A DNA stretch of 64,000 bases from contig CM062276.1 in NCBI GenBank assembly GCA_031216635.1, positions 7,427,185 to 7,491,184 on the forward strand. The letters run 5' to 3'. The notes under the pieces are model-generated. The model did no database searches and had not been told where the DNA came from. It saw only the letters and a program-made list of their open reading frames with translations. Positions within the stretch are counted from its first letter, which is position 1, and each line of letters opens with the position of its first letter. This document shows, piece after piece, positions 6,916-26,815 of this stretch. The DNA is from Dissostichus eleginoides. Its lineage: Eukaryota. The position numbers and the translations under genes are program-made.

Positions 6916-9900
6916 TTAACTTCTCTGGCTCAGCTGCCGGTACAGTTGGATGGTCATGAGCTGAACTTCAGGATCTCCAGGTTGGATGTCGATAGCTCTG
7001 AGGAAGCAGCTCAATGCGTCGTCAGGCTTGCCTTTGCTCTGGTACTCCTTCCCTCTCCTGACCAGGGCTCCGAAGCTCTCCACCTCGGACAGGATGCCGT
7101 TACTGCTCAATTTGACTCCATCAGCCGTGCACTGATCCATTTGTTCGTCGGAGGCTAGCTCGGGCTCGCTGGCCGACTCCTCCATGTTGCTGGTCATTTC
7201 CTGTTCGGACTCCTCAACATCATCTACTGACTCTGAGTACTCCTCATCATCCTCCTCTCCTTGTACATCTGCCTCCTCTTCTTCCACATCCTCCTCGCCC
7301 TCTGTCTCAAGGGTCTCCTCCACCTGAAGCTCATCATGAGTCAAACCAATGAGGTCCTCTTCTGCTTCGTCAGAATGCCTTTCTGAAACATCATCTTCTT
7401 CTTCCTCCTCCTCACTGGTAATTTCTTGGTTGTCTTTGATTTTCTCCATATCTTTGACGATGGATAGAATGACGGATCGGCATGAGGCCACGGAGGTGTT
7501 GCCTCCGACGCTCTTTCTTGACCGAAGAGGAGTGCGGACAGATGACACCAATTTAGGTGTGGAGGCGCCAAGAACCTGAAAGGAATTGTCCAGGTGACTC
7601 CTGTCATCTTGATCACTGCTGCTCTTTTTTTCTTCTTAGTCACAATGGAATTATCCATTGAATTGTCCATTACAGAGCTGTTGCCGTTGAAGCTTTGGCT
7701 GACTGCTTTCTTATGTTGTTTCTCAGAAAGAGATTTATTTATGTTAAAACTCCCCTCCATCTGCAGCTGTGACAGCAGCTCCCTCTCCTCTTATTCAGTT
7801 TCCAGATTATCCAGATCATCGTGGTCTGAGAGCATGTCACTATCTTCAAGCTGTAAATTGAAGCTGCCTCCAAAGGAATCAAGCCCTGTGCTGACGTTGG
7901 ATGATGTGTCTGCTTTGAAGCTTGAAGTGGAAGCTTGCAAGACAGAAAGTGTTTTATTCTGCAGGGCTGTTAAATGTGAGAGGCCCAAGTCCGTCTTGGA
8001 AACGTTTCTTGAGTGTGAAGTTTTGTTTGAAAGTTGTTGGTCTTCATCAGCTGCTGTAACGTAGGCCATGCTGCCGTCACTTGCCGAATCATTAGCAGCT
8101 CCACACAGAGAAACCTCGTCTCTTAGTTTTTGATTGGAGGCATCTGCCATTTCACCTAATTCAGCATCACTTGTATCAGAGACCAGATCAGAGAGGAGAA
8201 TTCATCGGCTACCAAGTAACTCCTCTCCTGTTTAACAGACACTGTTTTGGAGAATAAAGGTTCTGCTCAACAAGCTTGTCCTGGCTTACTTCTACGACAG
8301 GATGTTCTTCTGACATACCCTAATCTGCATTAAGATCAATAACATGGCCTCTCAGATTCTGTTGGGCGTCCTCCTCATCAGAACCAGACTGGTCCAACTC
8401 TATCACGACTGGTGACCCGTTAGAGTTACTATCATGCTGTGGATGGGAAGGACTTGGTTTTGGATTTCTTGTTTTTTTCTCATGAGTCTGCTCTCTGATG
8501 TGGTTGTCCGCTGGTTGTCTGAGCCAGGCTGGTTCTGTGTTTGATGTCAAACTTTCTGCCATCTGCATCTGTAACTCTGACTCAGCCTTCATCAGCTCCT
8601 GGGCCTTCTGCACTCTCCCTTCAATGTACTGATGGGCCTCTTGGTCTTCAGGGTCATCATCGTGGTTGACATCGAGGGAAAACATGAGGTCATGGTCAGA
8701 GATCCCAAAAATCTCCATGGTCTGGAGTTGGGCAATGTGTTCGTCCAGTTCAGCGTCTGTCCTTCGGTGTCTGGAGTGCAGGGATTGAAGTTGCAACTGA
8801 GTGCATGAGGACCTTGTGTCCTTGAGGAGGAAGAGCTCTTTCAACTCCTGCATGCTGAAGTACCTAAAAGGGTTTTTCTTGTCCCCGGTATTTTGTCTAA
8901 TGAGAGAGTCTTTGAAGACCTGCCTTCTGTAGATCTTCTCCTCTACTGTGCCGCAGGTGATTAGTCTGTAAACGACAACATTTTCGCTCTGCCCAATGCG
9001 ATAAGCCCTGTCAACAGCCTGGGCGTCTGTTGCTGGGTTCCAGCTAGGATCGTAGATCACGACTCGGTTTGCTGCCGTCAAAGTGATACCAACCCCTCCA
9101 ACCTGGTTGGTCAGGAGGAAGACAGAGTAGCTTTTGTCTGTCTGGAACTTAGTGATTAGCCTCTCTCTCTCTCTGCAAGCTGAATTATTGTGCCATCCAA
9201 TCTCAATACTTTGAAGCCTCTGTTGCCCAGGATGCGCTCGATGATGTCGAGCACTTTCCTGTAATGAGCAAAGACAAGCGTGCGGTGACCTTCTTCTCTG
9301 AGCCTTTGGAGAAGTGCAAACAGAAAGACGAGCTTCCCTGACTCAGATATTAAGGTCTCGTCTGGAATGTTGGCGATGGTGCCTGTCTCCATGTTATCAT
9401 TCTGCTGACCTTGAGCTGTACTTTCTTCTAAGCCTAACTTGGCTATGTCTGCAGCAGAGAGCAGTCTTGGATGGTCGCACAACTTTTTCATTATGTTCAG
9501 TTCAGCTAGAGGTGATCTGGTTGTCATGAGCAGCTCCTTGATGTGGTCAAGTGAAAGGACCTGCCTGTAAATATCTTCCTGAACAGGACTAAGGTAAGTC
9601 CAGACAATTAAGTCGTTCTTTCTAGTCAGTGTTGGCATGACTGCGCCAGAGTCTTTTGGAATATTTTGGACTTTGCCGTCCTTGGTCTCTGAATCTTCCT
9701 CTTTACAAGGAAGTTGGCCTTCCTTATTGTTTTTCTGCACTTCTGCTTTTGTCCTGCGGAGGAAGTAGGGTTTGATTATGGCCATGAGGTTCTCAGACAT
9801 TCGAGACCCGAGGGCCTTTTCCCCTGGAGTGGTGTCCTTCTCTCTGGCCCGGGTGATTGGGTTCTCATACTCCGTTTTGAAGGTTTTAGCTGTGCCTAAG

Positions 9901-10668
9901 AGAGTTCCTTGGCAAGCAAAGTCAAAGAGAGCCCACAATTCCTTCAGGTTGTTTTGGACTGGAGTGCCAGTCAGGAGAACTCTGTTTTTTGAAGGAATGG
10001 CGTAGGCACTTTTGGCTGTTTTGGTAGTTGAGGATTTTATCTTGTGTGCCTCATCTAGGATCATGTAGTCCCATGTGAACTCTTTGCCATTGTAAGATGA
10101 CAATTGCTGCCAGTTATTCATAAGCATTGTGTACGTGGTGATGATAACACCACTTCTCCTCTGAATTTTCTCCAAATTCCTGGTCCTCTCCTTGCTCGAT
10201 CCGTGAAACTCCTTCACCCTCATGCCAGGAGTCCATTTGGCAAACTCCTTGGTCCAGTTTGTGATGAGAGAAGTTGGCATGACCAGCAGTGTGTGCTTAG
10301 CCAGCTCGTTGTCATACATGCTTGAGAGGAATGATATCACCTGGATGGTTTTACCAAGGCCCATGTCATCTGCCAAGATCCCACCTTTACGTCCATCTCT
10401 GCAGAGACTGTACAAGAAGGCGACTCCATTTCTTTGGTAGTCATAAAGCTTGTCATACAACTCTTTGAAAAGCATTAAGCCGCTGCCGTTAACATTCACA
10501 AACTCTTCATCTTCTTCCTCTGAGTCATTCTGAGCAAGAAGTTCTTCAATTGTCTTTATCTGGCTTTCAAGTTTTTGACTCTGGTGAATTTTGTACGCCA
10601 GTTTGAAAAACTTCAGCGCTTGGTTCATATCGCCTTGTCTGGCAACATCTTTTCCCTCTTGAATGAAT
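6916..10668 (-). CDS. ercc6l: ERCC6L/PICH-like SNF2-family DNA translocase, main coding exon (N-terminal TPR, SNF2 ATPase DEAH box, helicase-C, long acidic C-terminal region ending in a TPR-like motif); reading frame interrupted several times
   Basis: A 513-aa intact ORF (9156-10697) carries GILADDMGLGKT, DEAHKIK and LLTGTPVQNNL motifs. The 8320-9081 ORF carries the helicase-C motif YRIGQ...VVVYRLITCGTVEEKIYRRQVFKDSLIRQ. The C-terminus ...CFLRAIDIQPGDPEVQLMTIQLYRQL is colinear with human PICH. A splice acceptor ttgttcttccag at 10669-10680 defines the exon start. Stop codon at 6916-6918. The reading frame is broken at a (GA)n run at 9159-9174, around 8150-8320 and at an A8 run at 7622-7637, and there are in-frame TAG (8320-8322) and TAA (7791-7793) codons. 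Confidence 0.85.
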
Positions 10669-10812
10669 CTGGAAGAACAAAAAAAAGACAAGAACATCAG
10701 AGAATAATTAATTAAAAAATAAATGTAGTCTGAAGAAGAGCTGCTACTAAGTATTTACAAATGTTAATTTCAATACATAGTAATTTGACAATTCATAAAA
10801 TGTATGCATTTA

Positions 10813-10838
10813 ACTTCAATCAATCAATCAATCAATCA
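10813..10838 (+). repeat. (AATC)n tetranucleotide microsatellite
   Basis: caatcaatcaatcaatcaatcaat. Confidence 0.85.
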
Positions 10839-10930
10839 ATGGCTACCAGATTTATATAACCATAAAAACACATTTACATAACCATATAACAGATCAAAAC
10901 ATTATTTAACATAAATTGATTATTTATATA

Positions 10931-12508
10931 TACAGGTGCATCTCAATAAATTAGAATATCGTGGAAAAGTAAATTTATTTCATTAATTCAATTCAAAAAG
11001 TGAAACTCATATTATATGGATTCATTACACACAAAGTGAAATATTTCATGGCTTTATTTGTTTTAATCTTGATGATTACGGCTTACAGCTAATGAAAACA
11101 CAAAAATCAGTATCTCAGAAAATTGGAATATTGTGAAAAAGTTCAATATTGTAGACTCACGGTGTCACATTCTAATCAGCTAATGAACTAAAAACTCCTG
11201 CGAAGGTTTCCTGAGCCTTTAAATGGTCTCTCAATCTGGTTCAGTAGGCTTCACAATCATGGGGAAGACTGCTGACTTGACAGTTGTCCAGAAGACAGTC
11301 ATTGACAGGGTAAGCCTCAAAAGGTCATTGCTAAAGAAGCTGGCTGTTCACCGAGTGCTGTATCCAAGCATATTCATAGAAAGTTGAGTGGAAGGAAAAA
11401 GTGTGGTAGGAAAAGGTGCACAAGCAACAGGGATAACCGCAGACCTGAGAGGATTGTCAAGCAAAGGCCATTCAAAAATGTGGGGGAGCTTCACAAGGAG
11501 TGGACTGAGGCTGGAGTCAGTGCATCAAGAGCCACCACGCACAGACGTATCCAGGACATGGGCTACAACTGTCGCATTCCTCGTGTCAAGCCACTCCTGA
11601 ACCAGAGGCAACGTCAGAAGCGTCTTACCTGGGCTAAGGAGAAAAATAAATGGTCGATTGCTCAGTGCTCCAAAGTCCTCTTTTCAGATGCAAGTACATT
11701 TTGCATTTCATTTGGAAATCAAGGTCCCAGAGTCTGGAGGAAGAGTGGAGAGGCACACAATCCAAGTTGCTTGAAGTCCAGTGTGAAGTTTCCACAGTCA
11801 GTGATGATTTGAGGAGCCATGTCATCTGCTGGTGTTGGTCCACTGTGTTTTCTCAAGTCCAAAGTCAACGCAGCAGTCTACCAGGACATTTTAGAGCACT
11901 CCATGCTTCCTTCTTCTGACAAGCTTTATGGAGATGCTGATTTCATTTTCCAGCAGGACTTGACACCTGCCCACACTGCCAAAAGTACTAAGACCTGGTT
12001 TAGTGACCATGGAATTACTGTGCTTGATTGGCCAGCAAACTGGCCTGACCTGAACCCTATAGAGAATCTATGGGGTATTGTCAAGAGGAAGATGAGAGAC
12101 ACGAGAGCCAACAATGCAGACGAGCTGAAGGCCGCTATCAAAGCAACCTGGGCTTCCATCACACCTCAGCAGTGCCACAGGCTGATCGCCTCCATGCCAT
12201 GCCGCATTGATGCAGTCATTCATGCAAAAGGAGGCCCAACCAAGAGTTGAGTGCATACACATGAACATACTTTTCAGAAGGCCGACATTTCTGTATTAAA
12301 AATCCTTTTTTTTATTGGTCTAATGTAATATTCAAATTTTCTGAGATACTGGTTTTTGGGTTTTCATTAGCTGTAAGCCGTAATCATCAAGATTAAAACA
12401 AATAAAGTCTTGAAATATTTCACTTTGTGTGTAATGAATCCATATAATACATGAGTTTCACTTTTTGAATTGAAATAAATTAACTTTTCCACGATATTCT
12501 GATTTATT
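10931..12508 (+). mobile_element. Tc1-like DNA transposon copy 1 (defective; right TIR truncated) in ERCC6L intron 1
   Basis: Left TIR TACAGGTGCATCTCAATAAATTAGAATATCGTGGAAAAG and an inverted partial right TIR at 12484-12508. Internal transposase homology. Confidence 0.85.
11259..12250 (+). pseudogene. Tc1 transposase coding region, copy 1 (internal deletion or frameshift near the N-terminus and an in-frame TGA at about 11810)
   Basis: MGKTADLTVVQKTVID... then ...KKCGRKRCTSNRDNRRPERIVKQRPF...SVMI*GAMSSAGVGPLCF...DLNPIENLWGIVKRK... gives the DDE(34E) signature. Confidence 0.8.
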
Positions 12509-12593
12509 GCGATCGATCGAAAGGTTAAGCAGAAGAGAAACCTTAGAAGATTTCCATAAAAAGGTGTTTTTTTTTTTTTGCTGGCAAGGAACG

Positions 12594-12645
<52 letters not shown>

Positions 12646-12676
12646 CTCTCCTCTCTCTCTCTTCTCTCTCCTCTCT

Positions 12677-12709
<33 letters not shown>

Positions 12710-12746
12710 CTCTCTCTCTCTTCTCTCTCTCTCTCTCTCTCTCTCT

Positions 12747-12843
<97 letters not shown>

Positions 12844-12893
12844 CTCCTCCTCTCTCTCCTCTCTCTTCTCCTCTCTCTCTCTCTCTCTCTCTA
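12594..12893 (+). repeat. About 300-bp compound (CT)n/(CTCTTCT)n polypyrimidine microsatellite in ERCC6L intron 1
   Basis: An uninterrupted pyrimidine strand for about 300 bp. Confidence 0.95.
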
Positions 12894-14753
12894 AAGTACT
12901 GAAAATAATGCTGATTTCACCCAGCCCATTGTAATGTATTCCCATTCTTGATACTTTTAAATCAAAAAGGTAGTTAGGTTCCCATTTACTCGCATATGAC
13001 AAAAGAAAAGCATCAAATTCAAACAACATTCGAAGCTGGAACCATCAAATGCTTGGAATTCTTGCTTAATAAAAGCTCACCCAAACATACTCACAATCTA
13101 ATTAGATAAATTACATTCAACTGATCAGTGTTTGACCTTGTTATTGTGTTTAAACTGTTACTTACATTGTGTTCCACTCTTACTCGGTTGCTGCTATAAT
13201 ACCTGAATTTCCCAACGGGGATCAATAAAGGTCTATCTTATTTTTATTGATTTCAATTATTTGCGTTAGGCTTAAGTACAGACACTCGATCGCTGAAGTT
13301 GACTGTCAAATAATTGTAATATCACTATTAAATGATTAAAATGATTTTAATCATTTTTGAGGTTGCTAATAGCTGTTTAGGTTAGTATTTACTAATTCAT
13401 TTTCTAAAAAGAACAACTTAGTCAATTCTTGTAATTAGCACAAGTCTTTATGATAAGGTTCAGGTGGACTTGCCTTTACCACATTTTCACACAAGTACCC
13501 TGATAACTGCTGGTCAATATATTTCACTACACACAAAGTGAGCTGTCAGAGGACACTTCAAATTTAGGCAGAACCAGTTATCCTTTGAGATGAAACAGGA
13601 TTTGTCAAATAAAAAGGAAGCTGTTAGACAACCTTTCCAATCGGCACTGACAATCTATGAAACTATCACCCTAGAGAAATGAGGAGGGGGTAACTTTATT
13701 GGTTAATCAAATAATAATTTCAATTTGAGCCTTAGTGCTAGGGTGGACAGTTGAAACTTAATTCATAAAGCTGTCCTAAGTCAACATTCAAATGGTGTGC
13801 AACTTTATTTTGAGGTATTCAATTTAAGCTTTACACGTGTGTTGTCATACTTTACGGCATCATTATATTTGTAAAAGATTGTGGCAAAAAACTGTTTTTG
13901 TAATTGTGGTTATATCATTGTAATTTATGATGCTGTTAGATCACTGCAAGACAGAAAATATATAATAATAATATTATTTTTGAAAGGCTCAACATAATTT
14001 TGGATTGAAGAAGAATATTAAGTTTGATTAAAAACCTCAGAATTGTAGTTAATGACTACTTTTGGATGTTCTTTGGACATTACCATGCTCTGGCAGTTGC
14101 TGGAATCTAAGTCTATTATATAGAAAATACAATTATTATTATCATACAAGTGTAGCCTTAGCCTATGTGTCCTACCTTGACTGAAATAAAGAGCGGTTCT
14201 GCTTATGTAATAATTTTTTTAAGTAACATGATATCAGACTAAAGGAGTTTTACGGAAACACCTCCACTATTCAATTTCCTTTTGAACCACTGTATTTATA
14301 ACAACTTTTAGAGCAACTATTAAATGTACAATTTAAATAAACTCAGGACGGTAAATATTTTAACAATGTGGCATGTATAAAGATCTGCATTATTTTTTTA
14401 CTTAGTGTTACCTTTGGTAGGTTTCCATCTTGTCTTCTGTATCCATGGACCTTTTGAGACAAAAACAGGGTTAGAAACACCGTCACATATCAGAATCAGA
14501 ATCAAGTTTATTGCCAGGTAGTTTTTCACATACTAGGAATTTGCTTTGGTATCTGGTGGTGCGAACATAAACAATCTAAAAAAATAAGTTGCAAAGAAGG
14601 TAGAAAAAAAGAAATATATAAGGATAATAAAAAATAAGTATTTTAAAGAAACAATTTAGCATTAAAAAGGGATGCTAAAGACAAGTATTTACACCAAATG
14701 TAAATGTAACTATACAAATAACCTTAAAGCTAAAAAACAAAAACACCTAGGAC

Positions 14754-15619
14754 TAGTGATGTGTCGGTCGCGAACGAGCCGATTCTTTTGAACGGCTCTT
14801 TGGTACGAACGAGGGGAACCGAGTCGTACTTGGTGAGAGCCGTTCTTGTTATCGCTCAATCGTTGGTCCGCACTCACTGCCTGCCAAAATCCACTCGCCT
14901 TTTAAAAAGCTTGATTTTGTTCCCCAAACGTATTCTGTGAAGACCCCCCCCCCCTACTCTGATTGGTAGGTTTCAGCACGAGGAGTGAGATGGGGTGGGT
15001 CTTAACGGAATACGCGCGAGAGAGAATTCATAACACGTGGTACAGGACAGGTAGACGACGTGTTTTTCGGATGGAAAATGAGCCAAACGCGAAAACGCAG
15101 CAGCCTTTGGAGGCACTTCAACCAAAACCCAGGCAGTGATAAAGCGCACCATTTGTAAAGGCTAAATATCCTTTAAAGCAGGGTCAACAAATAATCTCCA
15201 TCGCCACTTAAAAACACAGTATTGTAGTGCCGTCCGTGTAGCAACCTATCCCACAGGTGAATTATGTTCCACTAGGTGTCACCACAGTATCTAATATTAA
15301 GAGTTGCGTGAATTTCATTCAAGGCAAGGCCACTTTATTTACTTAACACATACAGAGGGTAAATTCAAAGTAGTACATTCACTGACATGAATGACATGGA
15401 TATGGCGCCACCTTGTGTCATGTTTACAATGCAGATTATTGACATTAGGTCTGGCAATACAGTCAATCATTATCCTGGTGATTATTTCGCAGATAAACCT
15501 AGTAACCCCGCCCCCCTTAAAAAAAACGGCTCTTTTGAACAGCTCTTTTGAACGGCTCTTTGAAAGGAACGGAGCCATAAGATCCGGCTCCCTTCAAAGA
15601 GCCATAATTCCCATCACTA
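14754..15619 (+). mobile_element. TIR DNA-transposon family C (termini TAGTGATG...CATCACTA; subterminal GAACGGCTCTTTG repeats), copy C1 with 8-bp TSD CCTAGGAC/CTTAGGAC
   Basis: 866 bp. Inverted termini with internal subterminal repeats. hAT-like TSD length. In ERCC6L intron 1. Confidence 0.75.
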
Positions 15620-16460
15620 CTTAGGACAATGAGTATATATGGCAAACTACAGTGTATTATATTTTAAAGAATACTGTTGACACACCTGTAATTTATATAT
15701 AATTATCACATGTATATACAGGGTTTCCCACAAAGACTTTACTTGGGCGGGCCGCCCAGGTATATTAACGGCCGCCAAAGTCTGCCTCACACAGGGTGAC
15801 AGGCTGTCAACATGATGTGGCCTGCCGACATGGCCACTGTCATACAGATCATAAATCAAAGCCCTTAGGCGCTTTCACACCGGAGTACTTTTCCCCGTAC
15901 TTTTCCCGTTTAGTTCCTGGGATTTTGCGTTCACACCAAAAAGAGAACTTGGTTCATGAGAACTTTTACCCCCTTTTTAGTGCCTGCTAGCGAGGTGGTA
16001 CTTTCCTGGGGAGAAAAAAGTTCCAATTTCTGATTGGCTGGGCGAATTGCAAACCATGCCCGTAAAACTCGGAAAAGTTTTGTGAAGCCGCCATTGTATT
16101 TGCTGACATTAGCATTATTAGCATTAGCCCCGCGCACCAACGGAGAGAGAATAACTTATGGCAACACAAAAAAAACATGGGAGGTGGAGTGATACGAAAA
16201 AAATTAACATAAAAGTGGCTAGACTTTGAGTAATGTTAACCTGTGGGGCGTTAGCACTGATGCTAAGTATGCCATCCGGGACACCGACGTTAACTTTACT
16301 CACTTTTCTAGTTTCTTGGAAATCTCCTCAAATTCGCCGTTGTGTTGAGTTATCTATCCTGTGTGTTAGTTTTTCCACGAATAACAAACACAATTCGGGA
16401 ATTTTTCGGTAGAAGAACCGCACAACACACCGATAGCTGCTGCTGCTGAGAGGAGTTAAC

Positions 16461-16495: not shown

Positions 16496-17822
16496 CTTCT
16501 TCTTCTTCTTTGTTTAATGGCGAGTCGCAACCACTTGGAGCATTATCGCCACCTACTGTTGATTTATTGAATCTTCAAGTTAAATCTTTGTCCTCAGACC
16601 AGTGTTTTTGAGAAACTTGAAGATCAGTTTGTGAACTTCATTTCTTGAGTTACTTGCAAATATTGACTTGAAATTCATGTCCTTAATGTTATGTTGTTCC
16701 ATTGCAGTTTTCAGAATGAGTCTTTGCCTTGTATATTCCGGGCAGCTAAAAAATACATGATTTATTGTCTCTGATTGTTGGCAACCATCACAATTGCCAG
16801 TTGAATGTTTTCCAATCAGATGCAGTGATGAGTTTAATCCGGAGTGACCAAATGTATCCTTCTGATAATGTTCTGTTCTCTTCTATTACTCCCCCAAGTG
16901 CTTTCCATTCCTACTTCTCTTTGTATCTGGTATAAATGTCTTCCTTTAGTGTTACTTTCCCATAACTTTTGCCATTGTTGCTTGATAATAACTTTCGTAA
17001 ATTATTTTACTTCTGCCCTACTGATAGGTAGGCTACTGTTAATTCAATCTAATTGGCTTTCAATCCATTTTTTGCCAGTTGATCCACTACCTCATTACCT
17101 CTAATACCCACATGCGCAGGAATCCACACAAACTGAACAACAATTCCCAAATGTACTACTAGACCAAACTAAGTTTAACAATAGTTGCAATTTGACTGGA
17201 AAACAATACAGAAGTTAAGTAAAACAGTAACCGTCTGTACACACAAACTGAAAGATTGACAATAAAGTTGACTTTGAATTGACTTTGAACTTCCTAGTTT
17301 ATCTGCTTGACATAAGTCATCCCATGAAACTAATGTTTGCATCACTTCCCTTTTTCTTTGACTGAACTTCTGTGTTTGACCCAAATTTTCCTCCAGCATG
17401 TCCGATACAACAGACCCCTCACATCCAGATACACACAGGTCTCTCAACAGGAATAAAATCCAACCTAATTTCTCAACTGTCTTTTTGAATGATAAATAAA
17501 GCAGGTCAAGCTCTTCTCTGTTTCTTTCTGATGCTGGCCATGCTGCTTCTTGTTTCTGACCTCTATCTACTTTCTTGCGTTGGCTCCCGCTAACAGCAAA
17601 CAAGGATACTTTTAACTTTACTGCAGGTGGTCAAAACATTAACTGCTGATCAAACAGCTCCACAACTTAATGAGTAAATGATATACAATAGATGTTAGCA
17701 GAAAGTACTTCCCATTTCCCACTTCAGCTGCTGAGCAGAATTGATCCTTTTTGACTAATGTTTGCATCAGTTTCCTTTTTCTTTGACTGAACTTCTGTGT
17801 TTGACCCACATTTTCCTCCAGC
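16496..17822. promoter_or_regulatory. Putative bidirectional promoter interval between ERCC6L exon 1 (minus) and the TMBIM gene start (plus)
   Basis: Head-to-head gene arrangement only. No motif evidence beyond the gene orientation. Confidence 0.3.
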
Positions 17823-17890
17823 ATGTCCGATACAACAGACCTCCTCACATCCAGAGAAACACAGCAGGCTCCTGGTGATGATGCATCCTC
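17325..17890 (+). repeat. Local tandem duplication of the TMBIM 5' UTR and start region (copy a 17325-17460 degenerate, copy b 17752-17890 contains the real ATG)
   Basis: About 130 bp at 95% identity, including ...TTTGACCCA(A/C)ATTTTCCTCCAGCATGTCCGATACAACAGAC.... Copy a reads MSDTTDPSHPDTH... and terminates early. Confidence 0.75.
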
Positions 17891-18086
17891 TCTACCAACG
17901 CCCTACCAAGGAGAGCAACCTCCACCCTACTCTGCAGCCAAAACAGACACAACTTGGACAAAACAGTCTAGCACTGGGTACGAGTCTTTCCGGGACATCA
18001 TCCCAGAACGTCTGTCGGACACAACTCCACTGATCGCCTCGTCTTCTTTCGATGACAAGATAGTGAGGAGAGCGTTTGTTAGAAAG
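17823..18086 (+). CDS. TMBIM/Lifeguard-family protein (FAIM2/GRINA/TMBIM1-like), exon 1: Pro-rich N-terminus with PPPY motif, ending ...FDDKIVRRAFVRK
   Basis: ATG at 17823, 88 codons, donor AAG|GTTTGT. RRAFVRKV matches the conserved RRxFIRKVY motif of FAIM2/GRINA. Confidence 0.8.
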
Positions 18087-18330
18087 GTTTGTCCGATTCA
18101 GAGTTTAAACTTTTCGCTACTATTTTTTATTTGTATTTGTTTTATTTTACCTTTATTTAACCAGGATAGGTCTCATTGAGATTACACATTTCTATTTTTC
18201 AAGAGAGTCCTGGCCCAAGAATGGTAACAGCACAGTTACAGACAATTTTAAAACACACAATCACAACACAGTCATACACCAAGTTTAGCCAAAGCATTTA
18301 CAGCCACAGCGGCTTCAAGGTCAGTTATGG

Positions 18331-19047
18331 CGCATTTCCACTACAGCGCGGAGCGCGGTTTAAGCGTGCCGTGCCCGGCCCGTTTTTGGTTGCGTTTCCA
18401 CTAGGCGTAGTTCCGGCTAGCGGGTACTTTTTCACAGTTTTCTGGCTCTCCAAAATCGAGGTTCTTTCCGGGCCAACAACCGGGCTGAGTATGCTAAACT
18501 AGTGAGAGAATCGCTGGCAACTACAACAAAATGAACATATTTGACCGTGATTTAATTGTAATACACGTTTCTAAATGATGCCGAAGTAACAACATACTGA
18601 TACCGGTTAGTAAAAACCATGAATTAATGCTGCAGACAGACGGCAGGCGAAAAACCTTTTAAAATGCGTGTTTTCTGAATGGAGATTGGCTAAGCTAACG
18701 CAGTATATGCTCCGACCGTCCACACTCACAACAACGGCCTACAGACATAAATAAACCAGCGACTGTATACGCCATGACACAGACAGTCTGTGGTTTGTAC
18801 TTGTTTAACTTTTGTCTAGTTTCTGAACAGATATGAGGAGCTGTGAGCTCTGAGGGCTAACAGCTAACGGCTGTTGGTTTTGTGTTTCGCATTGAAGATG
18901 ACGTCACGGCTCCGCCTACACTGCGTTACTATAGTTACTACCCTAGTTCCTAAACTGTAATGGAAACGCAGCATAAAGTGAGCCTGGCCTACCAAGGCCT
19001 AACTATACCGTACTAAGCCGTGCGAGGCCCTGCAGTGGAAATGTGCC
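18331..19047 (+). mobile_element. Related TIR repeat (GCGCATTTCCACTACAGCGCGG ... CCCTGCAGTGGAAATGTGCC) sharing terminal and internal blocks with 37103-37706
   Basis: Shared CATTTCCACTACAG termini and the block TACACTGCGTTACTATAGTTACTAC...CTGTAATGGAAACGCAGC. Confidence 0.5.
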
Positions 19048-19184
19048 ATTAGAGTCGCTTTTAGTCTGTTTAATGAGACCAGCTCTCTGAGTTTCAGCTC
19101 AATTTGAAGATGGTTCCAAGCTTCAGGAGCAGCGTAACGGAACGCCCTCTTCCCCAGTTCAGTACGGACTAAGATAAGAAGTAC

Positions 19185-19460
19185 TTTATTGATACCAATT
19201 TGGGACATTTTTGCGTTGCAGCAGCATGACAAGACAAGGCATTCTACATTAGAGAAATTAAAACCCAAGAAATAAACAATCCAAAATGTAAACATCTCAA
19301 ATAGAAATGAAATAGAATTAGAAAAGTAGAACATATACATGTTGAAATACAAATTTACAGTAACAACATTTAAAGCAGGATATTATATATACATTAAGAT
19401 TGTACGGAATGGAATATTAAATGTTAAATTGAATGTAAATGTGAAATGTACAGTTTGATT
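19185..19460 (+). repeat. Interspersed repeat family H (copy 2, uninterrupted) in TMBIM intron 1
   Basis: About 85% identity to 2745-2835 plus 3682-3900. Confidence 0.55.
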
Positions 19461-19966
19461 TGAAGTCTCACGGCGTTGCAGTGACTGATGGCAAATGACT
19501 CTTTGAGACAAGTGTTTGTTTTGATTTGTGAACAGTATTTGGGGTGTTACTTATCCTTCACCAGATGTTTCCCAACCTCGTGTTGAGACCCTCTATATGG
19601 GTCGCAAGATACATTTCAGGGTTAGAAAACGTATTAACAGGAAGACAAAAGCCGATTTTTTGGGTACATTTAAAGATAAATGTCCCGGGGGGCAAATAAC
19701 TTTTGTCCTTGGGCTGAGGCACAAAATTGTTCTTCAAAGGGATAGTATCTTATAATCAAACAAATTAAACTATTTTGATACACAAATACATTGTCTAAAT
19801 CAATAATAATAAAAAATTAGACGCATACTAGCTAAAAATGTTTTAATAAATCTTATCGAACTCGAAAAATGTAACTATTTTCTTAATATGATTACTCTAT
19901 ATTGTAACAGTCGGTGTTTATCTGGAAATATAGATTTATCGCTTCCTCAATAAATTCACCAGTAAC

Positions 19967-20540
19967 CAGAGGTGGGAAGTATTGGAGTACAAATACTTCT
20001 TTACTGTACTTAAGTACATGTTTCTGGTATCAGTACTTTACTCCACTACTTATTTTCCTGACGACTTTTTACTTTGACTTCTTACATTTTAACACAAATA
20101 CCTGAACTTTCTACTTCTTACATTTTCAAAACAGGCTGGTTCCTTTAGTTTGAATGTGTGTTTGGTGGTGATCATTATTATTTAGAGTCATTGCGTGCCT
20201 ATTGATTTGAACACGATCCGTGTATCCATCATTTCCTGGTCTTCTCTAAAGAAGAGGGACCAATGAAAACGTTGTCATGTTGCCGTTGTTCAGCATGGAA
20301 ACATTCATTAGCTAACAATGACATTATTGTTCTATTAATATAAAGGGAGGTCAGGTACTCTTTAAAACAGCTGCTAGTTATGGGTACTTTTTACTTAAGT
20401 ACATTTCAAAGCCCATACTTATTTACTTCTACTTGGGTAAAGAAGTTTAGTCAGTACTTCTACTTTTACCAGAGTATTTTTAAACACAAGTATCTGTACT
20501 TCTACTTGAGTAAAGCATGTGTGTACTTTTGCCATCTCTG
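19967..20540 (+). mobile_element. hAT-like MITE family B (TIR CAGAGGTGGGAAGTA...TTGCCATCTCTG), copy B1, TSD CCAGTAAC/CTAGTAAC
   Basis: About 575 bp, terminal inverted repeats and an 8-bp TSD. In TMBIM intron 1, ending 46 bp before exon 2. Confidence 0.8.
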
Positions 20541-20585
20541 CTAGTAACCGATAGCAACATGCTTGTTCTTTGTCTTCCCCTGCAG

Positions 20586-20784
20586 GTGTTCAGCATCCTG
20601 ACCCTCCAGCTGTTGTTCACCTTCAGTGTGGTGTGTGTTCACCTTCTCCAGCGTGGTGAAAGATGCGGTGCAGACCAGCCTGGGGGCCTACCTCAGCTCC
20701 ATCATCATCTTCCTCGTGGTCTCCCTCGCCCTCAGCTACAGCAGAGACTTCAGCCGTCGTCACCCCTGGAACATCTTGGGACTG
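20586..20784 (+). CDS. TMBIM-family exon 2 (TM1-TM2: VFSILTLQLLFTFSVV ... RRHPWNILGL); 199 nt, with a frameshift at a (TG)n run
   Basis: Acceptor tgcag|GTG and donor CTG|GTGGGT. Both halves match FAIM2 (LLVTLAVVALFTF / RRHFPWNLILL) but in different frames. One extra TG at 20626-20638 would restore the frame. Confidence 0.75.
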
Positions 20785-22394
20785 GTGGGTCACACGTACA
20801 GGAGCATAAACCCCCAAATATCTACTGTTGTGGGGAAACACAGTTCACACAATAAAGAGAGTGTCACAGATATTTTAAATCTGAAATGATAAAATAACTA
20901 ACGGCTTTGCAGTATAAAAGAAGGAATAGTTTGCCATGCAACTGAGGTCACAGAGTAGCATCCTAAAAAGTAAAATATTTTGAAGGTAAGGTAAGGTACG
21001 TTTATTTATATAGCACATTTTCAGACACAGAGGCAATTCAAAGTGCTTTACATCATCATTAACACTTAAATAAGACAACAGAAAGGAATACAATAAATAA
21101 ACATAATGGAATTAGATTCATAAAAAACATGCATAAAAGATACAGAATAGTTTAAAAACAACATTTTAAATACGGTAGGTGCTAAAAACAAGTTAAAAGG
21201 TTAAGGGTATATGTCTAAAAGCTACATATAAAATATATCCCAGTACAGTAAATACATTAAAGAATTAGTATAGATAAAACATTTTGCAAACATTTGTAGT
21301 TCCTGCTTGGTTTTCTGCACCATTTAGACCTAGTTTTAAATTTAACTAAGAACTTAGAATCTAGTACATTTTTGATTTAGTCTAAAATGTAAGTTGCCTT
21401 TGAATTTGTGTTCACGTGCCATTTGATTGTGACTGTTGAGGTTTTGTTAGCTTTTTAATTAAGGAGAGACTCCAACTGTTTTGGGAATTTCCTGCACTAC
21501 TTGAACCAATATGTTTTTATGTCATTTTCCCTTTATGTCTTAATTAAATTGTATGTTGCTGTTGGAGGATATCTAAATTACACATATCTAGTAAAAGAAC
21601 CGTACATTTTTATGTATTGAAATGTTCTTCCTCTACCAAAAATGGTCACTACCGAAACATAGTACATACACGGTAGTAAAAAAGTGTTATATTAACCTGT
21701 TAAGATTGTTTTACCTTCCCTTCTCAAAATAGTATTCTAACAAATATTTCTTGAGGGTTTTCACAATTAAATTAATAAAAGTGAATTTTTAATAAAATGT
21801 CAAAGTTCAATTTATACAATTCATAAAAATCATAATGCAAACTTTCTTTGTAAAATGCATAATACTGATCATATTGATTCCAGAGTTGATGATTGTTGAA
21901 ATTGAACATACATTAAACCAATCAGTATCATATCATTTTAGTTGATAACTCAAGATACTTTATTTTTTACAAAACATCCAGAGTTTCGGTAGACCACAGT
22001 ATTTTGTTCTCAAGGTTGTATCATATTCCCTCAACCTTATTGCTTAAAAAGACCCACTGAAGTGTGCGACGGTGCATGATCTTTTATGCTAATACGTATA
22101 GTAATGACCAAAATTGTCCATTGGAACCCATATCAAAGATGTTGGAATAGCAACGAATTTGACGAGTTTGAATTTTCCGCTGGGAAATTCGCAGTCGACC
22201 TCCGCCTTCGTGGGCGTGGCTTGCGATCTACTGCGTGACGTCAGAAGATGGGCCAAGTCGAAGTGTTTACATTCACCACCATTCATTTTGTCTCTATTTC
22301 AAAGTCGAATTTACCAACGTTTTTGAGCGAGTATTTGATTGGAAAGTGTTTCGCAGTCGACTGGAAGTGATTGCCAATCGAGAAAAGCTGACAA

Positions 22395-22511
22395 TGGAGG
22401 CGACAGTGACGAAAAAGGGAGGAAAAACACACGGGAAGCGATGCATTGCCGCTGGCTGTGGTAATGTGAAGTCTGCCGAAGTGGCGATGTTTCTGTTCCC
22501 AAAAGATGAAG
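22395..22511 (+). CDS. THAP-domain-encoding exon fragment (MEATVTKKGGKTHGKRCIAAGCGNVKSAEVAMFLFPKDE, donor G|GTGAGT)
   Basis: The C-x2-C ... F-x-FP pattern of a THAP zinc finger N-terminal half. A good donor follows. Confidence 0.4.
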
Positions 22512-22600
22512 GTGAGTGGCTGGTGTCATTGTTTCGTAGATTCGTAGATTGTTTATGAAAAATAAACGCCACTGTGTTTGTGTTAACTAACAAGACTATC

Positions 22601-22870
22601 ATGGCGGCGGCAGAGCTCAAGTCGAGTTTCTCCGCCTGGAGATATTCTCACTATTTCACTTTTGTCGAGCACAAAGAAAAGAAGGTTTTAGTTAAATGTA
22701 AGTTGTGTCTTGGCGGGTCAAAGATCCTATCGACTGCCCAAAACAGCAATTAAAATCTGTTGAAACATCTGCAGAAAAAACATGCTGGGACGAAGCTAGT
22801 AGCGAAGCTAGTAGCTAAGACCACAGACCCAGACTCATCCGACGCCATTCCACCTCCACCTAAGCAACAG
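22601..22870 (+). pseudogene. BED zinc-finger (hAT transposase N-terminal type) fragment with an in-frame TAA (22751-22753)
   Basis: MAAAELKSSFSAWRYSHYFTFVEHKEKKVLVKCKLCLGGSKILSTAQNSN*NLLKHLQKKH fits the BED pattern W..F......C..C....S.SNL..HL..H. Interrupted by a stop. Confidence 0.45.
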
Positions 22871-24363
22871 CGGCTGGATTGGCACTTTGAAACATATCTT
22901 TGTGTTTGTGTTTGTATAGACCACATTGCTTAGCAGAGTTCAGTGATGCAAATGCATGTCAAGTTGATCAACAGGTTGTATTATTCTCCGATGCAATAAC
23001 AGTACTGAAATGAAGGCTACAGTATAAGGGCATTAATGGGTGCCCTTTTCTAAGTAACTAAGAAGTTACTTTTCACAGTAACGCATTACTTTTTGGTGTA
23101 AGTAGTGAAGTAACTAGTAATTGTAACTACTTACTGGTTTTCAGTAACTAGCACAACACTGCATGTGAACATGAATGTTGCATCATGCTATGAACAGATG
23201 AATGTATGATCAGGTGACGGCCAATCCTGTGTGTAGATCTACTCTAGATCTATGACAAAATATTGTCCTCAACTAAATTGACTTCCATGGCCACTTTCCT
23301 CATCTATCCTGTCCGAAAAGCTGTCAAAATCACTCATTTCTCTCGCACCAGTATCACTTTCCGAAGGCTCCGCCATGTTTACAATCACAACTGGGCCCAT
23401 CTTGTGACGTCACAGCCGCTATCGTCTGCAGCAGCGGTAGGCTCAGACTCTGAAAAATTTGCGATGTTTATCTCGTCCCTCGCACTTCCTAAAAAATTAT
23501 TTTAGCCATGAACAGGTACAATTATATGTAAGAAATGAAACTGCCATTTCACTTTGGCGCAAAAAAATGCACTTCACTGGCACTTTAATCTTAACTCATA
23601 ACATGCCTTATGTTGAAGTGTGAATGTTTGAAGCTACTGACCCAGAATCAGCACTTTAGTAACAGGCTGAAATAGAGGGGAATGAGGCTAGAATGGGCGA
23701 TCTGTTTGGTATTTTGAGCAAAACACTTCATAGACATGTTTTTTATATATCTGAGACCTATAATATATGCCTACAAATAGTATAATAGGAGACCTTTAAA
23801 GGGCCCATGTCATGGCCATTTCCACTGATCATAATTCCATTGTTGAGGTATACTAAAATAGATTTATACTGTGCATTTTTCCAAACTCACATTGGTTTCG
23901 CATACAGCATCTCTGTAAAGTAAGTGTATTCAGCAGTATTCACTCTCTCCACTAAACGGCCCGTTGCAGCTCTTGCCCCCCCTCCCTGTGAGCACAGTGT
24001 GCTCTGATTGGTCGGGACGTTGTGAATCGCGCTGAGCTCCGTGGAGGTGTGGTTTCCTTGTTTAGCGATACACAGCGAAACACAGCCAAACTCATCCTGA
24101 GCACACACAAACTCACAGCCGAAGTAAAAACAATAAGTGTGGCTTGATATTGAGTAAGAAAAAGGTTGATAAACGCTGTGAGAATGGGTCTGCAGAGAGA
24201 ATTTCGCCGCGATCCCAACTGTCTGTTATCAGCCTGCAGCCAGGGATGAGAAATCAGCAGAGCTGCCTGCACTGAGTGTGTGTGTGAGGAAGTCCGTGGA
24301 TTGGTCAATTTGGACCAATCAGCAGAGGCTTAACGTAACGGCTCCGCGGACGTAACGTAACGG

Positions 24364-24443
24364 CTCCACGGATTGGTCCATTTGGTTCCGGGTACGAGCT
24401 GACGTCAGCTCGTACCCGGAACCAAACGGACCCATCCGTGGAG
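24364..24443. repeat. 80-bp near-perfect palindrome centred on TGACGTCA, preceded by a 22-bp perfect palindrome GATTGGTCAATTTGGACCAATC (24296-24321) containing two CCAAT/ATTGG boxes
   Basis: The left arm CTCCACGGATTGGTCCATTTGGTTCCGGGTACGAGCTGACG is the reverse complement of the right arm with two mismatches. Confidence 0.8.
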
Positions 24444-24762
24444 CAAAGAAAGAAACTGAGAAATCTCCAACGAGGCATTTTGGGGAGGAATTTTCTATGT
24501 TAGAGTTTTACTCGCTACAGGGTGTACTTTGAGGGTTTGTGACTCTGCAGACCGTTTACATGCATAAAAACCTACATAACACACAAGGGGATGGGTAATA
24601 ACCAGAAAAGCATGACACCTCTCCTTTAAAGTAACACACTGATTTTCAGACTTTAAAAACACATTTATTTCAAAACTATGGGATTTACCTGCTTACCATT
24701 CCATTTTGTCACTACCGAAAACGATCACGTCAATTACCGAAACGTATCCATATGTTTCGGTA

Positions 24763-24807
24763 GTAACTGTTTCGGTAGTAACTGTTTCGGTAGTGACGAT
24801 TCTAGCT
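24763..24807 (+). repeat. 3 x 15-bp tandem repeat (TGTTTCGGTAGTRAC) with inverted copies nearby (CTACCGAAAC at 24711-24750)
   Basis: Direct triplet. The motif recurs at 21650, 24940 and 25090. Confidence 0.7.
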
Positions 24808-25411
24808 AAAATTGAGCATAACTAAAGAATGCTAGCAAGTACATGGCTAGCATACACGTCTTTGAAGAGGTTTACACACATAAAAACCTAATACTTTGCA
24901 TAAAACCCCGAAAAAGTTTACTTAATTGAAGATAATAATGTGTTCGGTAGTGACAATTCTTAAGGTTACACGCCGATTTTCAGATTTTGGATTTTTGTGT
25001 TTAAATAGACCATAACATATTCTTAGTAAATATCTATGTCTGAATACTCAATTGTTTTGTTAAATAGTTTTTCTTGTTGTGGGACCGCACTTTACTAATT
25101 CGGTAGAATGCCCCATATACACAATCAAAAGACACATTTATACATATGCACACATTAAGACCTAAATAAAAGCGAAACAATCAATATACAAAATAACAGT
25201 CACTTCAATATCTTTGAGAATGTACATTAGTGCAAGACTGTCCATAGCAGCGTAAAAAAAGTTTCTGGTGCTCCGTAGTTATTGACAATCTAGCATTTGA
25301 ATATTGATTGTTAAATATTTTATGCAATGCATTAAATGTGTCTGCAAAATATGGAAAAAGCTTTTTAAAAGATACTTGAGATGTTTAATACATTTCGTTT
25401 TGTGCCTGCAG

Positions 25412-26646: not shown

Positions 26647-26650
26647 AACT

Positions 26651-26815
<165 letters not shown>

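What the first reader, a model, noticed from the sequence alone, without database searches (positions are those of the whole stretch)
9159..9174. ERCC6L frame breaks exactly inside a (GA)n dinucleotide run within the helicase-C domain
Reading the minus strand, ...QLAERER reaches a stop, while the +1 frame continues [42 protein letters not shown]. That continuation is the expected continuous PICH sequence. Removing one GA unit from gagagagagagagg restores an uninterrupted protein. A length change of one repeat unit in a coding microsatellite is either a consensus error or a genuine microsatellite-slippage loss-of-function allele.
Basis: seen in the sequence. Interest (0 to 1): 0.55.

Follow-up and report, generated by a model that had tools for sequence, protein, structure and literature searches.

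The report
Extra AG repeat in dead ERCC6L duplicate
The frameshift is really in the sequence, but it sits in a second, already broken copy of the toothfish ERCC6L/PICH helicase gene whose intact twin lies elsewhere in the genome, so it is one more scar in a decaying duplicate, not the loss of an essential gene.

Summary
On the minus strand, an (AG)7 run at 9174-9161 shifts the ERCC6L reading frame inside Helicase_C, giving ...QLAERERG + TAA (9158-9156). Deleting one AG restores ...QLAERERLITKFQ..., which is identical to every orthologue.

The context changes the meaning:
- The window is Dissostichus (toothfish) DNA.
- This gene is paralogue "B" of an ERCC6L duplication shared by Antarctic notothenioids.
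- Paralogue "A" sits at the ancestral locus and is an intact ORF of about 1,260 codons in D. eleginoides.
- Besides the AG insertion, the B copy in the window carries two nonsense codons (TAG 8322-8320, TAA 7793-7791), three frameshifting deletions (-1, -19, -22 nt), a 2-nt deletion just after the start codon, and a start codon changed from ATG to ATA.
- Six of these eight lesions are also present in an independent D. eleginoides assembly of the same locus. Only the extra AG and the ATA are private to the window.
- All six other sequences examined have (AG)6.
- B copies in two icefishes carry different disabling lesions.

So this is a pseudogene that has gained one more slippage-type lesion. 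Whether (AG)7 is a real allele (I lean about 0.6) or a long-read consensus error cannot be settled without reads. Either way it has little functional consequence. Interest is low.

The parts
6916..16357 (-). ERCC6L paralogue B (pseudogene), from the former start codon to the terminal stop. It has three coding exons with two introns.
   Evidence: Exon positions come from tblastn and alignment to the intact copy A. A/B homology is confined to window ~16457-6200. The window is 98.8% identical to D. eleginoides locus L001.
16304..16357 (-). Exon 1 remnant. The start codon is ATA at 16357-16355 (ATG in L001 and in all A copies; private to the window). A 2-nt 'CT' deletion at ~16349-16347 is shared with L001.
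   Evidence: Alignment. Translation from the former start gives IDNSTQRRI* in the window and MDNSTQRRI* in L001, against MDNSQHNGEVEEISKKLEK in copy A.
14412..14450 (-). Exon 2 (SMDTEDKMETYQ). It contains an in-frame Met that several annotations use as the start, so the exon-1 lesions could be bypassed.
   Evidence: tblastn; sequence context; P0004, P0123 and P0143 all begin MDTEDKMETYQ.
6916..10668 (-). Exon 3, the large coding exon: N-terminal TPR, SNF2 ATPase, Helicase_C, a disordered region and the C-terminal TPR. In the window it is read in four successive frames.
   Evidence: Three-frame translation; acceptor ttcttccag|A at 10669/10668; single continuous ORF in copy A and in T. bernacchii copy B.
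9696..10439 (-). SNF2-related ATPase domain (N-lobe).
   Evidence: Pfam PF00176, E=3.4e-67, residues 87-334 of the ORF that starts at 10697.
8992..9323 (-). Helicase_C domain, split by the frameshift.
   Evidence: Pfam PF00271 profile positions 6-50 in the upstream ORF and 56-110 in the downstream frame.
9161..9174 (-). (AG)7 run, the subject of the finding. It is +2 nt relative to the conserved (AG)6 and is private to the window.
   Evidence: (AG)6 is present in L001, A_Dele, A_Tber, B_Tber, B_Pgeo and Cottoperca and in D. mawsoni copy A. It is the only indel between the window and L001 in the CDS.
9156..9158 (-). Premature TAA created by the AG frameshift.
9106..9108 (-). AAC codon: Thr to Asn in SNF2 motif V (LLTTQVGG becomes LLTNQVGG), at a residue that is invariant elsewhere. 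Shared with L001.
   Evidence: T in 127 of 127 homologues; alignment.
8320..8322 (-). In-frame TAG nonsense codon (GAG in the other toothfish and T. bernacchii copies). Shared with L001.
   Evidence: The other sequences read GAG, AAG or GAT at this codon.
8243..8244 (-). 1-nt deletion (AAACAC|GTG becomes AAACA|GTG). Shared with L001.
8187..8188 (-). 19-nt deletion. Shared with L001.
7791..7793 (-). In-frame TAA nonsense codon (GAA in the other notothenioid copies; GCA in Cottoperca). Shared with L001.
7608..7609 (-). 22-nt deletion. Shared with L001. The three shared deletions sum to -42 nt, so the frame returns for the C-terminal TPR.
6973..7068 (-). C-terminal TPR motif.
   Evidence: Pfam TPR_1, E=2.2e-6, 27.7 bits against a cut-off of 27.8 (marginal).
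11223..12250 (+). Degenerate Tc1/mariner transposase remnant inside intron 2.
   Evidence: Pfam HTH_Tnp_Tc3_2 and DDE_3 on two adjacent ORFs. Also present in the T. bernacchii B locus.

Best explanation
The window carries paralogue B of ERCC6L (PICH), an SNF2-family DNA translocase.

Origin of copy B. It arose by a DNA-level segmental duplication of the gene, introns included, in the common ancestor of the sampled cryonotothenioids (Antarctic notothenioid fishes). It inserted between two Bax1-I (TMBIM-type) genes. Copy A stayed at the ancestral position next to an ADAM gene and is intact.

State of copy B in toothfish (Dissostichus). It has become a pseudogene. Two nonsense substitutions, three frameshifting deletions and a 2-nt deletion beside the start codon are fixed, or at least shared by two independent assemblies.

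The (AG)7 run. It is one further, haplotype-private lesion. The coding AG hexa-repeat (GCA GAG AGA GAG AGG = A-E-R-E-R) is conserved at six units in every other copy. It gained one unit, most simply by replication slippage, in a sequence no longer protected by selection. This truncates the conceptual product inside Helicase_C, before motifs V and VI.

Shown: the anatomy, the duplication, the shared lesions, and that the AG gain is private and derived.

Inferred: that the extra AG is a real allele and not a consensus error (about 0.6), that the mechanism was slippage, and that the locus produces no functional protein.
For: (1) Two loci exist in one D. eleginoides assembly. L001 matches the window at 98.8%. 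L002 is an intact ORF of about 1,260 codons with 3.5% substitutions against the window.
(2) The tree gives clade A and clade B (B bootstrap 97.5%) inside cryonotothenioids, with Eleginops and Cottoperca outside.
(3) Synteny: B is flanked by Bax1-I genes in the window/L001 and T. bernacchii, with Bax1-I upstream in Pseudochaenichthys. A in T. bernacchii and the single copy in Cottoperca are followed by an ADAM gene. L002 flanks are collinear with T. bernacchii A, and window flanks with T. bernacchii B.
(4) Each lesion is shown column by column against six other sequences.
(5) Only +AG and ATG>ATA are private to the window. The 7 coding SNPs between the window and L001 split 3 derived to 4 derived, as expected for two real haplotypes.
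(6) Relaxed constraint: helicase-core dN/dS is 0.75 for B (toothfish vs Trematomus), 0.27 for A, and 0.12 long-term. Three replacements, F380V, A417D and T530N (motif V), fall at residues invariant in 127-128 homologues.
(7) B copies decay independently in other lineages. Pseudochaenichthys has a -16/-10 nt frameshift that removes the C-terminal TPR. The Chaenocephalus model ends out of frame at 379 aa.
(8) For the AG gain being real: the window and L001 differ by 0.63% substitutions and 57 indels, of which only 9 are homopolymer changes. The error signature seen in a poorly polished CLR region of this gene family is 1-bp deletions, not whole-unit insertions. A and B are almost identical for +-150 bp around the run, so short reads from both paralogues would have voted (AG)6 and corrected a spurious (AG)7 during polishing (inference).
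Against: - No reads or transcripts are available, so the extra AG could be a consensus error.
- The window's source assembly is unidentified. All known toothfish assemblies are PacBio CLR based (PMC10910785, PMC11569150).
- The branch-specific N/S contrast between B and A is not significant (Fisher p=0.11-0.25).
- The coding region is less diverged between the window and L001 (0.19%) than the flanks are (0.63%). That could hint at residual constraint.
- The (AG)6 allele (L001) still has an open frame from the exon-2 Met through the complete ATPase to the TAG at 8322-8320. A truncated protein is therefore not excluded.
- T. bernacchii B is an intact ORF.
Confidence: 0.8

Rival explanations
1. 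The extra AG is a consensus or polishing error of a long-read (PacBio CLR) assembly. The true sequence at this locus is (AG)6, as in L001. The locus is still a pseudogene because of the shared lesions.
For: All published toothfish assemblies are CLR plus Pilon (PMC10910785; PMC11569150). Duplicated regions polish poorly: the D. mawsoni A copy shows 34 indels in 3.8 kb. The SNP:indel ratio between the window and L001 is low (160:57), which suggests that some indels in one or both assemblies are artefacts. (AG)6 is otherwise invariant.
Against: The CLR error signature seen here is 1-bp deletion, not insertion of an exact repeat unit. It is the only indel in 3.75 kb of CDS, so this stretch of the window is otherwise clean. 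If short-read polishing was done, reads from both paralogues would support (AG)6 and should have removed a spurious unit (inference). The window also carries private substitutions, including ATG>ATA, so it is a genuinely distinct haplotype.
Confidence: 0.38
2. Copy B is still a working gene in toothfish. It would be expressed from the exon-2 Met as a truncated PICH-like ATPase, or as the P0001-type product that splices out 8343-7576. In that case (AG)7 is a true segregating loss-of-function allele of that paralogue.
For: In L001 the frame is open from exon 2 through the whole SNF2/Helicase_C core (780 codons). The three shared deletions sum to -42 nt, so the C-terminal TPR is back in frame. 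A deposited gene model (P0001) encodes such a product. The CDS is less diverged than the flanks between the two haplotypes. B is intact in T. bernacchii.
Against: The model's donor CAT|GTTATT is ordinary coding sequence (G-H-V) in the intact copies and is a poor match to the donor consensus. Exon 1 is frameshifted in both assemblies, and P0001 needs an unrelated upstream exon, 'MLEENLG'. On the B_Dele branch the helicase-core N/S is 10:4. Replacements occur at three otherwise invariant residues, including motif V. B decays independently in two icefishes.
Confidence: 0.07
3. The frame change is bypassed by design, through programmed ribosomal frameshifting, transcriptional slippage on the AG run, or a tiny intron.
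For: None beyond the coincidence of a repeat with the frame change.
Against: Every orthologue and paralogue, and the other assembly of this same locus, is in frame with (AG)6. The shift is therefore not a conserved feature. A 2-nt intron is impossible, and both sides of the break are conserved coding sequence.
Confidence: 0.01

Closest known systems
ERCC6L / PICH (Plk1-interacting checkpoint helicase), an SNF2-family dsDNA translocase
   Same: Same domain order: N-terminal TPR, SNF2_N, Helicase_C, long acidic disordered region, C-terminal TPR. Identity to proteins named ERCC6L in teleosts is 72-100%. As in other vertebrates, a single large coding exon holds nearly all of the CDS.
   Different: This copy is a lineage-specific duplicate at a new genomic position. 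It cannot encode the full-length protein, because it carries eight disabling or start-affecting lesions.
Non-processed (duplicated) pseudogenes that arise after segmental duplication
   Same: An intact parent copy exists elsewhere. Introns are retained. Several nonsense and frameshift lesions are shared between individuals. dN/dS is raised. Different lineages show different lesions.
   Different: The duplicate is still an intact ORF in at least one species (T. bernacchii). Decay is therefore recent and lineage-specific, not complete across the clade.
Coding-microsatellite slippage frameshifts, as in mismatch-repair-deficient tumours or bacterial phase-variable genes
   Same: A gain of exactly one repeat unit in a short coding dinucleotide run causes an immediate frameshift and a premature stop.
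   Different: Nothing suggests recurrent or regulated switching. The run is short (6 to 7 units), it is invariant in all relatives, and it lies in a gene copy that was already inactivated.

Membership tests
ERCC6L/PICH (SNF2-family translocase) | SNF2-related ATPase N-lobe | tested here: met
   PF00176, E=3.4e-67, 227 bits against a cut-off of 24.9.
ERCC6L/PICH (SNF2-family translocase) | Contiguous Helicase_C lobe with motifs V and VI | tested here: not met
   In the window the domain is split between two frames at profile positions 50/56. Motif V also carries T>N at an invariant residue. It is contiguous in L001.
ERCC6L/PICH (SNF2-family translocase) | Orthology or paralogy to annotated ERCC6L proteins | tested here: met
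The window falls in clade B of the notothenioid ERCC6L tree.
ERCC6L/PICH (SNF2-family translocase) | Flanking TPR motifs | tested here: inconclusive
   The C-terminal TPR_1 scores 27.7 bits against a cut-off of 27.8. The N-terminal TPR was not detected by Pfam, but its sequence is conserved with orthologues.
ERCC6L/PICH (SNF2-family translocase) | Uninterrupted full-length ORF (about 1,250-1,300 aa) | tested here: not met
   The longest initial ORF is 502 codons in the window and 780 in L001, against about 1,220-1,260 in the intact copies.
Duplicated (non-processed) pseudogene | Intact paralogue elsewhere in the same genome | tested here: met
   L002/P0002 is in the same assembly, GCA_025770515.1, on another scaffold.
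Duplicated (non-processed) pseudogene | Several disabling lesions reproducible in independent assemblies | tested here: met
   TAG, TAA, the -1, -19 and -22 nt deletions and the exon-1 -2 nt deletion are all present in both the window and L001.
Duplicated (non-processed) pseudogene | Relaxed selective constraint (dN/dS approaching 1) | tested here: inconclusive
   Helicase-core dN/dS is 0.75 for B and 0.27 for A. Polarised counts are 10N:4S against 6N:7S, Fisher p=0.25; pooled p=0.11.
Duplicated (non-processed) pseudogene | No functional transcript or protein | not testable with these tools
   No RNA-seq or Iso-Seq access. The only deposited model (P0001) needs an implausible donor and a foreign first exon.
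Microsatellite slippage allele | Length change by a whole repeat unit relative to the ancestral state | tested here: met
   (AG)7 against (AG)6 in seven other sequences.
Microsatellite slippage allele | Supported by primary reads or a second individual | not testable with these tools
   No read data. The other assembly of this locus has (AG)6.
Programmed frameshift or recoding site | The frameshift is conserved in relatives | tested here: not met
   All relatives are in frame.

The most novel reading that the evidence does not exclude
ERCC6L-B could be a functional, Antarctic-clade-specific second PICH helicase. It is intact in T. bernacchii. In toothfish it would survive as a shortened ATPase, made from the exon-2 Met or with the damaged mid-region spliced out. 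In that case the (AG)7 run would be a naturally segregating knockout of that paralogue. The duplication of a helicase that resolves anaphase bridges would then be a candidate for the chromosome-segregation adaptations of cold-living notothenioids.
Probability: 0.06. Interest if true: 0.45.

Novelty: new member of a known kind. Interest (0 to 1): 0.2.

Why it matters
The main value is for annotation. It shows that this frameshift is not evidence of loss of an essential mitotic helicase. It also shows that a deposited toothfish protein (KAI9544328.1 = P0001) is probably an artefactual model stitched across a pseudogene.

A secondary point is that it documents an ERCC6L/PICH duplication shared by the sampled cryonotothenioids. 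The duplicate has decayed independently in toothfish and in two icefishes, yet it is still an intact ORF in Trematomus bernacchii. I found no report of this in the searchable literature. It is a small, clean example of how duplicates from the notothenioid radiation are being lost lineage by lineage.

There is also a caution for assembly work. The two copies are nearly identical around the AG run, and they confound polishing and annotation in long-read assemblies, as the D. mawsoni copy A shows.

Tried and rejected
- Intron explanation for the downstream breaks. The TAG at 8322-8320 sits next to a GGTATGT donor-like motif. I rejected this because intact orthologues read straight through the same sequence as coding.
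- My own first inference, that the window copy is the ancestral locus because T. bernacchii P0003 has the same Bax1-I neighbours. This was overturned. T. bernacchii and Pseudochaenichthys each have two copies. Cottoperca and T. bernacchii copy A both share an ADAM neighbour instead.
- Retrocopy origin. Rejected because introns and about 100 bp of upstream sequence are duplicated.
- Programmed frameshift or transcriptional slippage. Rejected on the comparative data.
- Identifying the window's own assembly or annotation. A search with the truncated ORF returned no 100%-identical truncated model, and an exact look-up of the 513-aa ORF found nothing. Whether the window comes from a second D. eleginoides individual or from D. 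mawsoni remains unresolved. Its 0.63% divergence from L001 fits either.
- Looking for independent read-derived (Logan) fragments across the break. The only toothfish hit was a D. mawsoni fragment of copy A.
- Polarising window-versus-L001 indels with T. bernacchii to estimate each assembly's error rate. Only 10 were informative (7 derived in the window, 3 in L001), which is inconclusive.
- Branch-specific N/S test for relaxed selection. The trend is in the expected direction but is not significant.
- Look-ups of P0005 (Eleginops) and P0123 (second D. eleginoides assembly) returned no DNA.
Full report
**1. The observation**

On the minus strand the window reads ...ATT CAG CTT GCA GAG AGA GAG AGA GGC TAA.... 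The run is (AG)7 at 9174-9161. The 513-codon ORF that begins at 10697 ends ...LRLDGTIIQLAERERG with TAA at 9158-9156. The neighbouring frame continues [42 protein letters not shown]....

Pfam finds SNF2-rel_dom (E=3.4e-67) in the upstream ORF. Helicase_C is split: profile positions 6-50 lie before the break and 56-110 after it. Deleting one AG gives ...QLAERERLITKFQ..., which is exactly what every orthologue reads. The repaired frame runs only 791 codons, to an in-frame TAG at 8322-8320, and not to the end of the protein.

**2. What the locus is**

The top hit is a 1,031-aa Dissostichus eleginoides protein (P0001, ~100% identical). A second D. eleginoides protein (P0002) is 1,295 aa and only 95% identical. 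Both are encoded in the same assembly, GCA_025770515.1, on different scaffolds.

- **L001, the P0001 locus.** It matches the window at 98.8% over the ~25 kb that align in high-identity blocks. It is the same locus in another individual, or possibly in the sister species.
- **L002, the P0002 locus.** It matches only across the gene, at ~94.7%.
- **The P0002 cluster.** It holds near-full-length proteins from eight other cryonotothenioid species. Among them are second genes in Trematomus bernacchii (P0126, besides P0003) and Pseudochaenichthys georgianus (P0128, besides P0004).
- **The tree.** An NJ tree (984 gap-free columns, 200 bootstraps) resolves a clade A of 11 sequences and a clade B made of the window, L001, T. 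bernacchii P0003 and P. georgianus P0004. Clade B has 97.5% support. Eleginops and Cottoperca fall outside both. The species order is mirrored in the two clades, and the B branches are longer.
- **Synteny.** B is flanked by Bax1-I genes in toothfish and T. bernacchii, with Bax1-I upstream in Pseudochaenichthys. A in T. bernacchii and the single gene of Cottoperca are both followed by an ADAM/reprolysin gene. L002 flanks are collinear with the T. bernacchii A locus, and window flanks with the T. bernacchii B locus.
- **Extent of the duplication.** A/B homology is confined to window ~16457-6200. That is the gene with its introns, about 100 bp upstream and a few hundred bp downstream.

Conclusion: a DNA-level segmental duplication of ERCC6L occurred in the common ancestor of the sampled cryonotothenioids. 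A is the copy left at the ancestral locus. The window carries B. Synonymous divergence fits this: dS(A,B) is about 0.053, against 0.03-0.035 for Dissostichus versus Trematomus within each clade.

**3. The state of copy B in toothfish**

L002 (copy A) is one uninterrupted ORF of ~1,260 codons. Aligned to it, and to four other intact or near-intact sequences, the window shows the following lesions.

| # | Lesion | Window position | Shared with L001? |
|---|---|---|---|
| i | Start codon ATG>ATA | 16357-16355 | No, window only |
| ii | 2-nt deletion three codons after the start (MDNSTQRRI*) | ~16349-16347 | Yes |
| iii | Extra AG unit | 9174-9161 | No, window only |
| iv | TAG in place of GAG | 8322-8320 | Yes |
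| v | 1-nt deletion | 8243 | Yes |
| vi | 19-nt deletion | 8188 | Yes |
| vii | TAA in place of GAA | 7793-7791 | Yes |
| viii | 22-nt deletion | 7609 | Yes |

Two of the shared lesions are base substitutions, so they cannot be long-read indel artefacts.

The three shared deletions sum to -42 nt. This explains why the C-terminal TPR is back in register. It also explains why an automatic predictor could build P0001, which declares 8343-7576 (768 nt) an intron and so hides five lesions. The 'donor' of that intron, CAT|GTTATT, is plain coding sequence (Gly-His-Val) in the intact copies. The model also has to borrow an unrelated upstream exon (MLEENLG, ~17.4 kb) to get past the exon-1 frameshift. 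I regard P0001 as an annotation artefact, but I could not test this with transcripts.

**4. Constraint**

- Nei-Gojobori dN/dS in the helicase core is 0.75 for B (toothfish vs Trematomus). The matched A pair gives 0.27, and either copy against Cottoperca gives ~0.12.
- Changes polarised onto branches give 10 non-synonymous to 4 synonymous on the toothfish-B branch, and 14:4 on the Trematomus-B branch. The A branches give 6:7 and 10:7. The direction is as expected for relaxed selection, but the counts are small (Fisher p = 0.25; pooled p = 0.11).
- Three toothfish-B replacements hit residues that are invariant in 127-128 homologues: F380V, A417D and T530N. The last is in SNF2 motif V (LLTTQVGG becomes LLTNQVGG).
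- B also decays elsewhere. The Pseudochaenichthys B copy has large in-frame deletions and a -16/-10 nt frameshift that removes the C-terminal TPR. The Chaenocephalus B model (P0143) ends out of frame after 379 aa. T. bernacchii B is still an intact ORF.

A point in the other direction: the coding region differs less between the window and L001 (7 SNPs in 3.75 kb, 0.19%) than the flanks do (0.63%).

**5. The AG run itself**

(AG)6 is present in L001, in toothfish A, in T. bernacchii A and B, in Pseudochaenichthys B, in Cottoperca, and in the D. mawsoni A copy. The six-unit state has therefore been held since before the notothenioid radiation, because it encodes A-E-R-E-R. The seventh unit is derived and private to the window. 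It is the only indel between the window and L001 in the whole CDS.

Whether it is a real allele or a consensus error cannot be decided here.

*For a real allele:*
- The two assemblies differ by 160 substitutions and 57 indels over 25.3 kb, of which only 9 are homopolymer-length changes. These are genuinely different haplotypes.
- The window also has private substitutions, including the start-codon loss.
- In the one clearly under-polished CLR region of this gene family that I could inspect (D. mawsoni A, 34 indels in 3.8 kb), nearly all the errors are small deletions, most of them 1 bp. None is a whole-unit insertion.
- A and B differ at only two positions within +-150 bp of the run. Short reads from both paralogues would therefore have supported (AG)6 and removed a spurious unit during polishing. 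This last point is inference, because the window's assembly method is unknown.

*For an error:*
- Every published toothfish assembly is PacBio CLR with Pilon polishing (PMC10910785, PMC11569150).
- Duplicated regions polish badly.
- The SNP:indel ratio of 2.8:1 is low enough to suggest some artefactual indels.
- Polarising indels with T. bernacchii gave only 10 informative cases.

I put 'real' at about 0.6. The functional consequence is small either way, because the copy was already disabled and copy A is intact.

**6. Mechanism**

The simplest mechanism is replication slippage adding one unit to a short dinucleotide tract that is no longer under purifying selection. It is the same kind of event that causes frameshifts at coding microsatellites elsewhere. 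There is no sign of regulated or recurrent switching. Programmed frameshifting is excluded because all relatives are in frame.

**7. Comparison with what is known, and novelty**

The gene belongs to the ERCC6L/PICH branch of SNF2 translocases by domain content and orthology. As a sequence, however, it fails the tests of a contiguous Helicase_C and a full-length ORF. It fits the definition of a non-processed duplicated pseudogene on three of four criteria; expression could not be tested.

Full-text searches found no paper that mentions ERCC6L together with notothenioids. The two papers that mention ERCC6L together with 'Antarctic' did not appear relevant from their titles and abstracts, and I did not read them. 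The A/B duplication and its lineage-specific decay therefore appear to be undescribed, but they are an ordinary kind of event.

Noticed in passing
window 8343-7576 and ~17399 (minus strand); L001: The deposited D. eleginoides protein KAI9544328.1 (P0001, 1031 aa) seems to be an artefactual gene model of this pseudogene. It splices out a 768-nt stretch holding five lesions, using a donor that is coding sequence in the intact copies. It also starts in an unrelated upstream exon (MLEENLG).
   Followed up: partly
L007 8837-12543 (D. mawsoni GCA_011823955.1, copy A): The D. mawsoni copy A has 34 indels in 3.8 kb, mostly 1-bp deletions. It also carries B-type bases and B-like deletions around CDS 2340-2690. 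This suggests an unpolished and partly collapsed A/B consensus, or gene conversion. Its annotation splits the gene into 181-aa and 406-aa pieces.
   Followed up: partly
L004 (Pseudochaenichthys georgianus B locus); P0143 (Chaenocephalus aceratus): Icefish B copies carry their own lesions. A 60-nt in-frame deletion in the N-terminal TPR is shared by both species. In Pseudochaenichthys there are also ~417 nt of in-frame deletions and a -16/-10 nt frameshift that removes the C-terminal TPR. The Chaenocephalus model is 379 aa and ends out of frame.
   Followed up: partly
L006 (T. bernacchii copy A), codon 520 of the exon-3 CDS: The presumably functional T. bernacchii copy A has Gln to Leu in SNF2 motif V (LLTTLVGG). 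That position is adjacent to the Thr hit by T>N in toothfish B. It could be a real substitution or an assembly error.
   Followed up: no
window 11223-12250 (+) and 43951-44745 (+): Tc1/mariner transposase remnants (HTH_Tnp_Tc3_2 + DDE_3). One is frameshifted and lies inside ERCC6L-B intron 2; it is also present at the T. bernacchii B locus. The other is a longer 264-aa ORF at ~44 kb.
   Followed up: partly
window 12367-13029 and ~26479-26811: There is a long imperfect GA/CT-rich microsatellite in intron 2 of ERCC6L-B. Its spurious ORFs read ERERER... and SLSLSL.... There is also a long (TG)n tract near 26.5 kb, and several of the window-versus-L001 indels cluster there.
   Followed up: no
window 1-~4000 (+), ~17500-25400 (+), ~26800-27100; 56377-56865 (-): Neighbouring genes, placed by correspondence with L001 gene calls: two Bax1-I (TMBIM/lifeguard-type) genes flank ERCC6L-B, and there is the end of a PARP gene. 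Further along there is an exon with DUF1731 (SDR39U1-like epimerase).
   Followed up: partly
window 7609 region (minus strand): The 22-nt deletion lies between near-repeats of CAGT(A/G)AT...GATGA in the acidic DSDQDD-coding stretch. That pattern would fit a microhomology-mediated deletion.
   Followed up: no
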